Shown here one piece after another: positions 47,974-51,100 of a stretch of 64,000 bases of DNA. This stretch comes from Anolis carolinensis. Lineage: Eukaryota. Made by a program: the position numbers. Within the stretch, counting starts at the first letter, position 1. The number at the start of each line of letters is the position of its first letter. The stretch covers positions 331,771,402-331,835,401 of the forward strand of contig NC_085841.1 of NCBI RefSeq assembly GCF_035594765.1, given 5' to 3'.

Positions 47974-48030
<57 letters not shown>

Positions 48031-48150
48031 TATAATTATAATGACAATGGGCCAGTTAACTCTTTGAGAACTAAATACAGGGGTGTTATGATGTTGAAGA
48101 CTCAGTTCTTCTACCTTGAAGTTATTGGAGGAAAGGCTAAATTAGTTGTT

Positions 48151-48189
<39 letters not shown>

Positions 48190-51100
48190 TATTATTATTA
48201 ACAACAACTAATTTAGCCTTTCCTCCAATAACTTCAAGGTAGAAGAACTGAGTCTTCAACATCATAACACCCCTGTATTTAGTTCTCAAAGAGTTAACTG
48301 GCCCATTGTCATCCACACTGCTCTTAGGAGTAGTATCTGGGACATTAGGATGAGTGGCTGGTGTTTAAGTAGAGGATCTATGCCCTCCACTCTCCTGAAC
48401 ACAACAACAGGTCTACCAATATAAACAGAAAAAACAAGAGCAGCCCCTCCCCAGTATATACAGCAGAGACTCACATCTATAACCACATCATGGCACTTGT
48501 ATTTTACAGCCAGGTTCAGTTTCATCTCTATGTCTTCCACTAGGCGCACATATTCCTGTAGAACCTATATGAGGAGGAAAGGAAGTATCAGCAGAACAGA
48601 ACTACCAAAGGTTAGGATTCCTCTTCCATGCTCCTTAGCTCATATGTAAATCATTCTGCCTAGCCTTGGCAAAATGATTTTATGAAGGTCTCCCTTCATA
48701 AAATCAACAACCAAATAGCCCATTCAAAGGTAAATTCGATCAAACAACTGTCATTGTTTGGAAAGCAAGTGAAACCAAATGAACTCTCTTTTCCTATGCC
48801 CAATGAATGACAACAAACGTATACTTTGTACATTGTAGTGTTGAGTTAAATGACTACTGCCCAATAAACATTTCCAGAGGCAGGCTACTATTACTTTATA
48901 ATGGGGAAGCTTTCCTACTCACCTGCACCGGAGCATTGTTTCGCTGTAAGATCTCCACCACCCGGTGGAAACCAATAGGAGCTCTTTTTTTGGTGTAACC
49001 CAGCCAGTTCTGAAATCAGAGTAAAAAAAATCCTATTAACATTTGACCTTGAAAAAGAGTCATCCTAAATATGTTTGGGGAGGGGAAACATATGTTTAGT
49101 ATGTGGTGGATCCAAAATAAGAAGATAGGCATGGAACAATTTTCCCTAGTTCCCAATGCATTGCACAAAAGTAGGAACCTCAATGAATGAAAGAACCAGA
49201 ACATAAAAGTTTAATAAAAAGCCAAATTATTTATATATGCTCATGAGCCTATGAAAGCCACCACTTGGTCCAAGTTCAGAGAAAGCCACTCCAACTCACC
49301 TTAGTGGTGAACAAAGCATCCACATCATGCCAAGCTCGCAGTTTGGCACGAGCCGCCAGGGCTGTCAACACAAACTGTTTGTCTGGAATCTGCAAGGCAG
49401 AAAAATCAAACTCCTAAACTACAGAACAGTAGAAGCTATATGGTTGTGCCCCACCAACTGATACTGATCAATGTCCAGTGGGCCACCTAGAACATTTTGG
49501 TTGCTAGGAGTCTTTTAAAAACTTTGACTAGGAGAATCCCTTAGTCTGTTCCAGGAGGCTTTTATTACATTGAAAAAACACATAGTCTGAAATATTTGAT
49601 TTACATTATAAAAATTTTAAGAGATCCTGAGTGTAGGACATTCTCAAAAGTATAACAACCCCATGGGAATTTAATGGAAATCAGAATCAACAGTAGAAGT
49701 AGCAAACCATGCAGGACTGTAGCCTAATCCAAAAGATCAGGACACAGACTTCTAACACCCCCCATTCAACAGACATGGCTGTGTTGGACTAGGCAGAGTT
49801 CGCTTGTCTAAGAAGCATGGTCATAATCAGATACCTCTAGAATCAGGCTGAACATGGTCTCAAACTCATTAAATTGGTTCCATCCATTTTGGAATGAAAA
49901 ATGAACATCATGTAACAATTTAAATGTCATAATTTACACGAAACATTGGCTAATATGCACATTTTAGTTCCAATGCTGGTGCATGAAGCCAGATTTCATA
50001 CACCCAAAACTTTCACAATGAACAGGCATCTACCCTATCTAGATCAACCTGCACAATCCAGATCATTAGCAAAGAGAAACATACCATAACAAAATGAATA
50101 GCCCCAAATGATCTAAGTCAGAGAGCCAAGTTACCTACTACGGGACAATGCAACTATGGTCTCCAAACTTAATGAACCCCTTCCCACCACATCTTTTTGA
50201 AGAAAAACTAGGAGAAACTACATCATAGCTACAGCTGCTGCAATTTCAAAGCAAAACAGCATAATATCCCAGCTGAATATCAGGAGGCCCCAAGGATAAT
50301 TTATCATCAAAGACTTTTTGTGGCTTAGGGCAACTTCAAGCAGCAAATGATCTTGAGACTTAAGCTACAAGTAGTCTTCATTAACGAACTTTAATTCCAC
50401 ACCCAGTTTTTCCATTCTGAATGGATGGAATTCAGCTCTCAAGAACTACTCAATTTGGAAATTTGCTTTGGTCAAAACTTAGTCCATATCTCTAGCTTAG
50501 AACTCTGGCTGCCCCACAGGGCTTTTTTGAATACTTGCAGCCAAGCCTCTCAGGACATTAGATCAACGTTCATATCAATGTTCATGGTTTGAGTGCAACA
50601 CCAACCATGATTTGACATTAGAACAACTAGCTTGTGTGAACCTCAGGTCAGAAGTCAACCATTTCCTTCTGCCTGCAGATTTTATGAAGTTGACTTGTTA
50701 CTGACTCACTTCTAATGTGCATATATCTAGCAGCATTACTGTCTCGTAGAACACATCCTTAGCAAACTTCGGATTACTTACCTTAAAGGTTTTCTTCAAG
50801 TTTGCAGGACTACTGAAGGTGCCCTGGGAAAGCAAGACATGGTAAAGTTAATGAAGGAGATCGGCCTGGGGGGGAAGAGGGTGAGCAGAGAATGGAGATG
50901 ATTTTCTAATATGAAGATTTCGGTCTACTTCTAGCTCTGTTTTGTTCCTCATTATCATTATTTTATGTCTTCAAAATCTAGTTTCCTCACAAACTTTCCA
51001 CAACTAAGTTTGTGTCAACTTTTCTTCAGTTACATGCATTATTTACTTAAACAGTTTTAGATATACGTAGACATACAAATAAAACCAAATTAATCTGCAT

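What the first reader, a model, noticed from the sequence alone, without database searches (positions are those of the whole stretch)
47976..48312. Perfect 125-bp-arm palindrome at the 5' junction of an R4/Dong-type retrotransposon, inside a VIPAS39 intron
Seen in sequence: 48041-48165 and 48188-48312 are exact reverse complements around a (TAA)n loop, and a second (TAA)n tract links the left arm to the truncated 5' end of the element. On the plus strand the element's outer flanks read roughly (TTA)n, but 47976-48187 reads (TAA)n, so this block looks like an inverted copy of the adjacent flank. Inference: fold-back or template switching onto flanking DNA during target-primed reverse transcription, primed through the microsatellite. 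The arms show zero mismatches although the element itself has several frameshifts, which suggests a later origin, arm-to-arm gene conversion, or an assembly artefact. The VIPAS39 pre-mRNA would carry a 125-bp perfect dsRNA stem ~160 nt downstream of the donor at 48475 (possible ADAR, Dicer or splicing substrate; possible cruciform fragility in DNA).
Basis: partly seen in the sequence, partly recalled or inferred. Interest (0 to 1): 0.65.

Follow-up and report, generated by a model that had tools for sequence, protein, structure and literature searches.

The report
Perfect palindrome beside a truncated lizard LINE
A flawless 125-base inverted duplicate of intron sequence, bridged by TAA repeats, sits exactly where a broken-off lizard retrotransposon joins its host gene; it is probably a scar of that insertion, a kind of scar already known from human L1.

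Summary
48041-48165 and 48188-48312 are exact reverse complements (125 of 125) around a 22-nt (AAT)7A spacer. A (ATA)22 tract links the left arm to the 5'-truncated end (47974) of a decayed retrotransposon on the minus strand. That element is a non-LTR type carrying a restriction-like endonuclease (RLE). It lies in the last coding intron of the SPE-39/VIPAS39 gene of an anole-like lizard, so the window is not human.

The arm has no other copy in the 64 kb, no target-site duplication, and no similarity to the element. The block 47975-48187 has the opposite repeat polarity to the element's tail and to the (ATT)4 next to the right arm. It is therefore an inverted copy of the upstream target flank.

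My best reading (0.42) is a templated inverted duplication made while the insertion's 5' junction was resolved. Local inverted duplications and templated insertions of nearby DNA at the integration site are reported for human L1.

The main difficulty is age. The element has one stop, four frameshifts and about 2.4% private divergence, which predicts about six arm differences; none is seen. This needs arm homogenisation, a later origin (0.25), or an assembly artefact (0.12). No reads, empty site or genome-wide copy number could be checked. Interest is moderate.

The parts
44307..44408 (-). Next (last matched) coding exon of the SPE-39/VIPAS39 gene. It defines the 3' end of the intron that holds everything below (intron about 48474 to 44409, 4066 nt).
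   Evidence: tblastn of the Lacerta agilis SPE-39 homolog P0135: residues 440-473, 88% identity. Intron length.
46231..46260 (-). Degenerate (AAT)10 3' tail of the retrotransposon. The sense strand reads AAT AAT TAC AAT TAT AAT AGT AAT AGT AGT, then the unique flank CTTGATCAG.
   Evidence: Read directly.
46261..46351 (-). 3' untranslated region of the retrotransposon copy.
   Evidence: It lies between the stop that follows ...RKYITQS and the tail. It is not similar to the palindrome arm: 149 of 500 shuffles score as well.
46352..47974 (-). 5'-truncated, decayed ORF of an RLE-type non-LTR retrotransposon (R4-clade candidate). It corresponds to residues 595-1137 of the 1137-aa Anolis carolinensis family member P0001.
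   Evidence: RVT_1 match from profile position 113, and sub-threshold zf-RVT. 92% identity to P0001 over residues 595-907. One in-frame stop (47038) and four frameshifts (about 46970, 46740, 46590 and 46453). 17 of 312 residues differ from all 18 family members, plus one codon deletion.
47975..48040 (.). M1: (ATA)18 ATT ATA ATT ATA on the plus strand. This TAA-type tract joins the truncated element end to the left arm. Its polarity is opposite to the element's own tail.
   Evidence: The element boundary was set by the alignment to P0001 (T595 = ACT, 47974-47972).
48041..48165 (+). Left arm: 112 nt of unique sequence followed by T(AAT)4. I infer it to be the inverted copy.
   Evidence: Exact reverse complement of 48188-48312. 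No other copy of the 113-nt non-repeat part of the arm, which was the query, in the window.
48166..48187 (.). Spacer or loop, (AAT)7A. With the arm ends, the centre reads (AAT)11 A (ATT)4 on the plus strand, so it is asymmetric.
48188..48312 (+). Right arm, contiguous with unique intron sequence and the exon. I infer it to be the original target flank.
48313..48474 (-). 162 nt of unique intron between the splice donor (GTGAGT at 48474-48469) and the palindrome.
48475..48564 (-). 90-nt SPE-39/VIPAS39 exon immediately upstream of the intron.
   Evidence: AG at 48566-48565 and GT at 48474-48473. tblastn of P0135 residues 412-440, 83% identity.

Best explanation
This is a real, local, templated inverted duplication made while the 5' junction of a retrotransposon insertion was being resolved.

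[quoted passage not shown] It lies in the gene's orientation. On the sense strand the site read: unique intron, arm, (AAT)n, downstream flank.

**Shown.** cDNA synthesis stopped at codon 595.

**Inferred.** The cDNA end and the upstream (reciprocal) target end were not joined directly. A polymerase, either the element's reverse transcriptase or a repair polymerase, switched to a template of the same polarity. Antiparallel TAA·TAA alignment pairs two positions in three, and this nucleated the switch. The polymerase copied the repeat and 113 nt of the upstream flank in reverse complement. The product was then joined to the truncated cDNA through a second repeat tract of the same inverted polarity.

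Two mirror-image versions fit the sequence:
- The reciprocal 3' end primes on its own strand, on the sister chromatid, or on the nascent pre-mRNA.
- The cDNA 3' end copies back along the nicked target strand to the nick.

**Identity of the arms (inferred).** The arms have stayed identical through arm-to-arm template switching (homogenisation of inverted repeats).

**Consequence (inferred, not observed).** The intron DNA can extrude a 125-bp hairpin or cruciform. The pre-mRNA would carry a perfect 125-bp stem 162 nt downstream of the donor.
For: **The structure is as described**
- Exact 125-nt arms.
- The right arm is contiguous with unique intron and the exon. The left arm lies between two TAA tracts and the element.

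**The junction itself has inverted polarity**
- The (AAT)-polarity tract abuts the truncated end at 47974/47975, with no (ATT)-polarity unit left next to the element.
- The tail (46231-46260) and the four units at 48188-48199 keep the expected (ATT) polarity.
- A later event inside a normal upstream microsatellite would have had to end exactly at the element boundary.
- A later double-strand break in a normal microsatellite would have perfect homology on both sides for simple repair (inference).

**The arm is not a mobile element or element sequence**
- No second locus in 64 kb.
- No flanking duplication: the flanks are ...TTATA and CCACAC....
- No similarity to the 3' UTR.

**The element is RLE-type**
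- P0001 has only RVT_1 and a sub-threshold zf-RVT, with no AP-endonuclease domain.
- A profile of 30 relatives matches R2 proteins at E = 2.5e-47.
- A second stretch of that match covers the CCHC and PD...D...K region, i-E = 7.6e-4.

**Literature**
- Dong elements target TAA microsatellites (PMC3812793, passage).
- An R4 clade is active in Anolis (PMC5389967, passages).
- In induced human L1 retrotransposition, 3 insertions carried inversions of genomic DNA at the reciprocal end and 3 carried DNA templated from near the integration site. The same paper lists local 'inverted duplications' and self-annealing of ends (PMC11702581, passages).
- Template switching between inverted-repeat arms homogenises the arms and can invert spacers (PMC8604942, abstract and passages).
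Against: **The age mismatch is the main problem**
- The element is old: one stop, four frameshifts and one codon deletion.
- 17 of 312 residues differ from all 18 family members, which are 97.4% alike among themselves.
- That corresponds to roughly 2.4% nucleotide divergence, so about 6 differences are expected between arms of the same age. P(0) is about 0.002. It rises to about 0.05 if half the private changes came from the source copy.
- None is seen, so homogenisation must be assumed and is not shown here.

**Other weaknesses**
- The model needs at least two template switches. It does not explain why copying stopped at 48312/48041, where there is no microhomology.
- The 11-versus-4 asymmetry of the central repeats and the 22-unit M1 need slippage or an intact external template.
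- No empty site, second allele, read data or other 5' junction of this family could be examined.
- In the R1/R2 junction survey I read (PMC2718515, passages), 'inverted' occurs 0 times in the main text. Inverted flank copies were not among the junction types it describes for RLE elements.
Confidence: 0.42

Rival explanations
1. Later origin. The element first integrated with a normal upstream repeat. Much later, a replication or repair template switch nucleated in the hairpin-prone TAA tract wrote an inverted copy of the flank next to it. This is a long version of the short template-switch mutations that create perfect hairpins.
For: - Zero mismatches in 125 nt, and pure repeat tracts, beside an element with one stop and four frameshifts and a degenerate tail.
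- Template switching in replication is reported to create and maintain perfect hairpins (PMC5453318 and PMC8794818, search listing and start of abstract only).
Against: - The inverted-polarity tract reaches the element boundary to within 2 nt. The last switch, or a break, would have had to fall exactly there.
- Return to the original template inside the repeat would leave (ATT)-polarity units next to the element. There are none.
- A break in a plain microsatellite has an easy homologous repair (inference).
- I recall reported template-switch events as mostly far shorter than 113 nt. This is recalled, not checked in the texts.
Confidence: 0.25
2. Assembly, cloning or library artefact. The genome has only one arm, and the inverted block comes from a chimeric read or a mis-join through TAA repeats.
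For: - Perfect identity is what an artefact would give.
- Palindromes and long AT microsatellites are hard to clone, amplify and assemble (general knowledge).
Against: - A simple strand-switch chimera would carry the inverted copy on into the unique sequence beyond 48312. Instead the copy stops there and is joined through a 66-nt repeat to the element.
- The block is embedded between unique sequences on both sides in one contiguous stretch without N.
Confidence: 0.12
3. Pre-existing palindrome. The inverted repeat and its repeats were already in the intron, and the element later landed beside it in a mixed TAT/AAT tract.
For: - A 9-nt string AATTATAAT (11 of 12 if extended) occurs in the same orientation at the arm-proximal end of M1 and in the 3' tail. 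It could be a target-site duplication.
- 48029-48042 is self-complementary, so polarity is ambiguous just there.
Against: - The shared string is low-complexity and could be chance.
- (TAT)18 would still be unexplained extra sequence at the 5' junction.
- An even older palindrome makes the perfect arms harder to explain.
Confidence: 0.08
4. A foldback-type or miniature DNA transposon (MITE) whose terminal inverted repeats are the two arms, unrelated to the retrotransposon.
For: The region 48041-48312 is a compact 272-bp unit made almost wholly of inverted repeats. The window does hold a hairpin-shaped dispersed repeat family (12378-12504, 60624-60738, 30690-30738).
Against: - There is no target-site duplication of 2, 3 or 8 nt (left flank ...TTATA, right flank CCACAC...).
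- There is no other copy in the window, although the hairpin family and the SINE each have 3 loci in the same 64 kb, at 77-93% identity to the query copy.
- Arms of the true dispersed hairpin copy are 83% complementary, not 100%.
- There is no relative of the arm's open frame in two protein collections.
Confidence: 0.04

Closest known systems
Local rearrangements at LINE-1 integration sites: inverted or templated genomic DNA at the reciprocal end, and hairpin or foldback formation (PMC11702581, passages read)
   Same: An inverted copy of genomic DNA from right beside the integration site lies at the 5' (reciprocal-end) junction of a 5'-truncated LINE. The proposed causes are the same: self-annealing, template switching and end processing.
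   Different: The L1 cases are de novo events in human cells, made by an AP-endonuclease LINE with a poly(A) tail. Here the element is RLE-type and TAA-tailed, in a lizard germline. The copy is bridged on both sides by microsatellite of inverted polarity. The event was not observed as it happened.
Twin priming, giving 5'-inverted L1 insertions (recalled; also described in passages of PMC11702581)
   Same: A second 3' end at the target primes synthesis in the opposite direction and yields an inverted segment at the 5' side of a truncated LINE.
   Different: In twin priming the inverted segment is element sequence. Here it is host flank, with no similarity to the element or its relatives.
Short template-switch mutations and inverted-repeat arm homogenisation (PMC5453318 and PMC8794818, listing and abstract start; PMC8604942, abstract and passages)
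   Same: A reverse-complement copy of neighbouring sequence creates or perfects a hairpin. The same process can keep the arms identical and invert spacers.
   Different: I recall those events as usually a few to tens of bases. This one is 113 nt plus repeats and sits at a retrotransposon junction.
Human palindromic AT-rich repeats, PATRRs (PMC1851657, listing and abstract start: about 190-600 bp)
   Same: A palindrome of a few hundred bp with an AT-only centre that can form a cruciform.
   Different: No translocation or fragility data exist for this locus. The arms are 37.5% G+C in their unique part, so not extremely AT-rich. The origin at a LINE junction is specific to this case.
R1/R2 5'-junction variation (PMC2718515, passages read)
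   Same: RLE-type and rDNA-specific elements show target deletions, direct duplications of target (16-27 nt 'insertion site rearrangements'), non-templated bases and microhomology at 5' junctions.
   Different: The target copies described there are direct and short. The word 'inverted' occurs 0 times in that paper's main text.

Membership tests
RLE-type non-LTR retrotransposon (R2 group; R4/Dong clade candidate) | Reverse transcriptase domain of the non-LTR type | tested here: met
   - RVT_1 E = 1.8e-8 on the window copy, from profile position 113 onward.
- RVT_1 E = 8.8e-31 on the full-length relative P0001.
- The best solved-structure matches are R2 proteins, E = 5.2e-31 for the single sequence and 2.5e-47 for the profile.
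RLE-type non-LTR retrotransposon (R2 group; R4/Dong clade candidate) | No N-terminal AP-endonuclease; a C-terminal CCHC motif plus a PD-(D/E)xK restriction-like endonuclease | tested here: met
   - Pfam finds no endonuclease/exonuclease/phosphatase domain in P0001.
- Profile positions 931-1112 align to R2Tg (9dou) residues 1196-1356 across CRxC...H...C and rPD...iDV...K, i-E = 7.6e-4.
- C950, C953, H962, C967, D1036, D1049, E1064 and K1065 are invariant in 30 of 30 aligned relatives.
- The motif names are recalled.
RLE-type non-LTR retrotransposon (R2 group; R4/Dong clade candidate) | (TAA)n 3' tail and insertion into a TAA microsatellite, the Dong-type specificity | tested here: inconclusive
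   - This copy ends in a degenerate (AAT)10, and (ATT)4 remains beside the upstream flank.
- No other DNA copy of the family was available to confirm the canonical tail or target.
- TAA targeting of Dong elements comes from a passage of PMC3812793.
RLE-type non-LTR retrotransposon (R2 group; R4/Dong clade candidate) | Phylogenetic placement inside the R4 clade, with R4, Dong and Rex6 | not testable with these tools
   No named R4, Dong or Rex6 reference sequence was returned by any search. The presence of an R4 clade in Anolis is taken from passages of PMC5389967.
Templated inverted duplication of target DNA at a LINE integration site | The inverted segment is a copy of host DNA lying directly beside the insertion, at the 5' (reciprocal-end) junction | tested here: met
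   Exact 125-nt reverse complement of the adjoining upstream flank, placed between that flank and the truncated element end.
Templated inverted duplication of target DNA at a LINE integration site | It arose in the same event as the insertion (empty site with one copy; all carriers have both) | not testable with these tools
   No eukaryotic genome, read set or second allele was on hand. Junction polarity argues for this. Arm identity compared with element decay argues against it.
Twin-priming 5' inversion | The inverted segment derives from the element's own RNA | tested here: not met
   - blastn of the arm against the element gave nothing.
- The arm does not match the 3' UTR beyond chance, with 149 of 500 shuffles as good.
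- blastx of 47975-48474 against 269 proteins, 148 of them relatives of the element, gave no hit at E <= 10.
MITE or foldback DNA transposon | Target-site duplication flanking the terminal inverted repeats | tested here: not met
   The flanks are ...AATTATA and CCACACTG.... There is no 2-, 3- or 8-nt direct repeat.
MITE or foldback DNA transposon | Dispersed multiple copies | tested here: inconclusive
   - 0 further copies in the 64-kb window, while two true dispersed families each have 3 loci there.
- Translated searches found nothing.
- The rest of the genome could not be searched.
Palindromic AT-rich repeat (PATRR-like) | Near-perfect palindrome of a few hundred bp with an AT-rich centre | tested here: met
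   272 bp, arms 125 of 125, centre made only of A and T, 30.9% G+C overall. The DNA hairpin is -147 kcal/mol.
Palindromic AT-rich repeat (PATRR-like) | Demonstrated cruciform extrusion, size polymorphism or breakage | not testable with these tools
   This needs experiments or population data.

The most novel reading that the evidence does not exclude
TAA-specific RLE retrotransposons may seed perfect, AT-centred palindromes systematically. TAA repeats pair with themselves at two positions in three. The polymerase that resolves the 5' junction could therefore switch onto a same-polarity template, possibly even the host gene's own nascent pre-mRNA, which carries arm-(AAU)n and so mimics the element's tail. 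If so, such insertions would be a recurrent source of cruciform-prone sites and long intronic double-stranded RNA in lizard genomes.
Probability: 0.1. Interest if true: 0.6.

Novelty: new member of a known kind. Interest (0 to 1): 0.35.

Why it matters
If it is real and tied to the integration, it shows three things:
- The aberrant end-processing seen for human L1 in cell culture also leaves germline scars.
- The same happens for a very different LINE, one with a restriction-like endonuclease that targets microsatellites.
- A trinucleotide repeat can nucleate the strand switch.

It would also place a perfect 125-bp double-stranded RNA stem in the intron of an essential trafficking gene. That makes a natural test case for RNA editing, small-RNA production and palindrome stability in a reptile.

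If it is an artefact, or a later replication error, it is an ordinary curiosity.

Tried and rejected
**Gene and element identification**
- Pfam on single candidate exons gave no family (and 4 of the 6 proteins). Gene identity came instead from one exon search and an exon-wise tblastn.
- The endonuclease fragment of the window copy alone, searched against solved structures, gave only chance matches (E about 1-2). I replaced this with a profile of 30 relatives.
I dropped it.

**Is the arm a dispersed repeat?**
- blastn within the window found only the two arms.
- A translated search of the 70-aa open frame (residues 1-56, near lengths) found no candidate.
- A 39-aa arm peptide searched against 1.84 billion representatives gave one hit, P0269. 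It is a tandem-repeat ORF matching 17 residues at 41% in 10 stretches. I judged it chance.

**Is the arm derived from the element?** No.

**Target-site duplication.** Only a 9-nt low-complexity string is shared.

**Survey of other 5' junctions.** I looked for homopolymer runs in 148 related proteins. Two runs turned up, both in one protein and near its C-terminus, which is uninformative.

**RNA genes at the locus.** Rfam and ARAGORN found nothing there.

**Not used**
- Complex prediction, fold search and the protein atlas, because no question here needed them.
- The phage, plasmid, E. coli and prokaryotic genome collections, which cannot hold a lizard locus.
- The metagenome and viral contig collections, which were closed.

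As a result, the genome-wide copy number, the empty site and read support all stayed unchecked.

**Corrected errors.** Four paper-tool calls failed on term format and were corrected.
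Full report
**What is in the sequence**

The window has no N. I take it for a lizard contig, not a human one. The retrotransposon copy in it is 91-93% identical in protein to 18 Anolis carolinensis family members.

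Positions 48041-48165 are the exact reverse complement of 48188-48312, 125 of 125. Between the arms lie 22 nt, (AAT)7A. Including the arm ends, the centre reads GTTGTTGTT (AAT)11 A (ATT)4 AACAACAAC on the plus strand.

To the left, 47975-48040 is (ATA)18 ATT ATA ATT ATA. It runs straight into the truncated end of a minus-strand retrotransposon at 47974. To the right, the arm continues into 162 nt of unique intron, and then into a 90-nt exon with AG and GTGAGT boundaries.

As RNA the region folds at -223 kcal/mol, with 0 of 100 shuffles as good. As DNA it folds at -147 kcal/mol, with 0 of 200 shuffles as good. The next best inverted pair of unique sequence in the 64 kb is 91 nt at 88%.

**The element**

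The minus strand from 47974 to 46355 corresponds to residues 595-1137 of P0001, a 1137-aa A. carolinensis protein. The reverse transcriptase match begins only at profile position 113 of 205, so the copy is truncated inside that domain.

P0001 has RVT_1 and a sub-threshold zinc-binding motif, and no AP-endonuclease domain. A profile of 30 relatives finds R2 retrotransposon proteins as the best solved structures (E = 2.5e-47). A second aligned stretch covers the CCHC motif and the PD...D...K endonuclease core (i-E = 7.6e-4). So this is a non-LTR element with a restriction-like endonuclease.

The sense strand ends in a degenerate (AAT)10. Dong elements are reported to target TAA microsatellites (PMC3812793, passage). 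An R4 clade with 1,729 polymorphic insertions is reported in A. carolinensis (PMC5389967, passage).

I could not place the element in the R4 clade by a tree. No named reference was available.

**The gene**

I searched exons one at a time and made no joined model.

The ORF at 49279-49413 finds 'spermatogenesis-defective protein 39 homolog' (VIPAS39) from many vertebrates. There were 225 proteins at E <= 0.01 among 259 candidates, and 120 were listed.

tblastn of the Lacerta agilis protein gives 16 exon-sized matches on the minus strand, from 63633 down to 44307. Residues 412-440 match 48558-48472 and residues 440-473 match 44408-44307. The palindrome, the element and a SINE therefore lie in the last coding intron, which is 4066 nt.

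**What the block is**

On the plus strand, a normal insertion of a TAA-tailed element lying in minus orientation should read: (ATT)n, antisense element, (ATT)n, upstream flank. The tail and the four units at 48188-48199 do read that way.

Everything from 47975 to 48187 reads (AAT)n. It contains the reverse complement of the upstream flank.

It is none of the following:
- **A dispersed repeat, as far as I can see.** The arm has no other copy in the window. A hairpin-shaped repeat family and a SINE each have three loci in the same 64 kb.
- **A transposon with a target-site duplication**.
- **Element sequence inverted by twin priming**.

Two translated searches found no relative of the arm. This is weak evidence, and the rest of the genome could not be searched.

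**When it arose**

Two lines of evidence pull in opposite directions.

*For origin at integration.* The inverted-polarity repeat abuts the truncated end directly, so no normal 5' junction survives. A later template switch inside a normal upstream repeat would leave (ATT) units next to the element, unless it ended exactly at the boundary. A later break in a plain microsatellite has perfect homology for simple repair. This last point is inference.

*Against origin at integration.* The element is old. It has one in-frame stop, four frameshifts and one codon deletion. For one search I used the 18 of the 30 family proteins that span the whole 312-residue stretch and dropped the 12 with partial coverage; 17 of the 312 residues differ from all 18. 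Those 18 members are 97.4% alike among themselves.

At about 2.4% nucleotide divergence, two arms of the same age should differ at about six sites. P(0) is about 0.002. It is about 0.05 if half the private changes were inherited from the source copy.

Perfect arms therefore need one of three things: arm homogenisation, a later origin, or an artefact. Homogenisation by template switching is well described for inverted repeats (PMC8604942, abstract and passages). The same process can invert spacers, so the 11-versus-4 asymmetry of the centre cannot tell which arm is the original.

**Artefact**

A simple strand-switch chimera would continue the inverted copy into the unique sequence beyond 48312. 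It does not, which lowers this possibility but does not remove it. No reads were available.

**Mechanism**

This is inferred, apart from the first-strand steps.

After first-strand synthesis stopped at codon 595, a 3' end at the junction primed on a same-polarity template through TAA·TAA pairing, in which two of three positions pair. It copied repeat plus 113 nt of flank. It was then joined to the other end through a second repeat tract.

The switching end may have been:
- the reciprocal target end, copying its own strand, the sister chromatid, or the nascent pre-mRNA; or
- the cDNA end, copying back along the nicked target strand.

Local inverted duplications, inversions of genomic DNA at the reciprocal end (3 insertions), DNA templated from near the integration site (3 insertions) and self-annealed hairpins are reported for induced human L1 retrotransposition (PMC11702581, passages).

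For R1 and R2, the junction survey I read describes deletions, short direct duplications, non-templated bases and microhomology. The word 'inverted' does not occur in its main text (PMC2718515, find mode).

I do not claim that inverted flank copies at RLE-element junctions are absent from print. My searches were only, and supplements were closed.

**Consequences**

The stem in the pre-mRNA and the cruciform potential follow from the sequence. Editing, dicing, splicing effects and fragility are untested inference.

**Verdict**

The structure is real in the sequence as given. It is most likely a scar of retrotransposon integration, of a kind known from L1, here in a new element type and bridged by microsatellite. 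Its timing is unresolved. Interest is moderate.

Noticed in passing
window 60431-60487 and 61770-61814: Two long pure TAA-type tracts of opposite polarity, (AAT)19 and (TTA)15, lie 1.28 kb apart. They bracket two VIPAS39 exons (61342-61205 and 60993-60913). In the pre-mRNA they could pair as an A·U-only duplex of about 45 bp around those exons.
   Followed up: partly
window 27669-27783 (+): A 5S rRNA match just above Rfam's gathering score (39.1 against 38 bits, E = 1.5e-4), covering the full model length. It lies at the edge of the G+C-rich stretch 26-28 kb. It could be a 5S pseudogene or a 5S-derived SINE.
   Followed up: no
window 12378-12504, 60624-60738, 30690-30738: A hairpin-shaped dispersed repeat family. 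The first copy has 53-nt arms, 83% complementary, 21 nt apart. It has three loci in the window; the other two match the first at 83-88%. I used it as a contrast to the single-copy perfect palindrome.
   Followed up: partly
window 45700-46105, 36382-36710, 6322-6664: Three copies of a SINE-like repeat, at 92.7% and 84.6% identity to the first. The first lies in the same intron, just downstream of the retrotransposon tail. ARAGORN calls no tRNA anywhere in the window.
   Followed up: partly
window 4455-5348 and 12884-13978 (-): Two further reverse-transcriptase ORF remnants of another non-LTR family (...GVPQGS(I/V)LGPVLFNIF(V/I)NDLD...). They are only 25.5% identical to the family studied here. 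I did not classify them.
   Followed up: no
window 16095-16484 (-) and 36962-37594 (-): Exons of neighbouring genes. One has a GOLD_2 domain (E = 7e-31). The other is NADP-oxidoreductase-like (F420_oxidored E = 1.3e-3, below the cut-off). From recall, these fit TMED8 and NOXRED1, which lie next to VIPAS39 in other vertebrates.
   Followed up: no
window 25626-25765 and 26041-26179; also 6-149: An inverted repeat pair of about 140 nt at 86-87% (91 nt at 88% in the repeat finder), with a related fragment at the window's start. It lies just left of the G+C-rich stretch at 26-28 kb, which may be a promoter region.
   Followed up: no
window 48029-48042 and 46244-46252: The arm-proximal end of the (ATA)22 tract is a self-complementary 14-mer. 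It shares the 9-nt string AATTATAAT, in the same orientation, with the element's 3' tail (11 of 12 if extended). This could be a target-site duplication or a low-complexity coincidence.
   Followed up: partly
window 49279-49413 (-): In the exon search the best matches were unnamed proteins at 82-84% identity, and no listed protein matched at 100%. The query ORF includes intron ends. The species is therefore not settled beyond 'an anole or close relative'.
   Followed up: no
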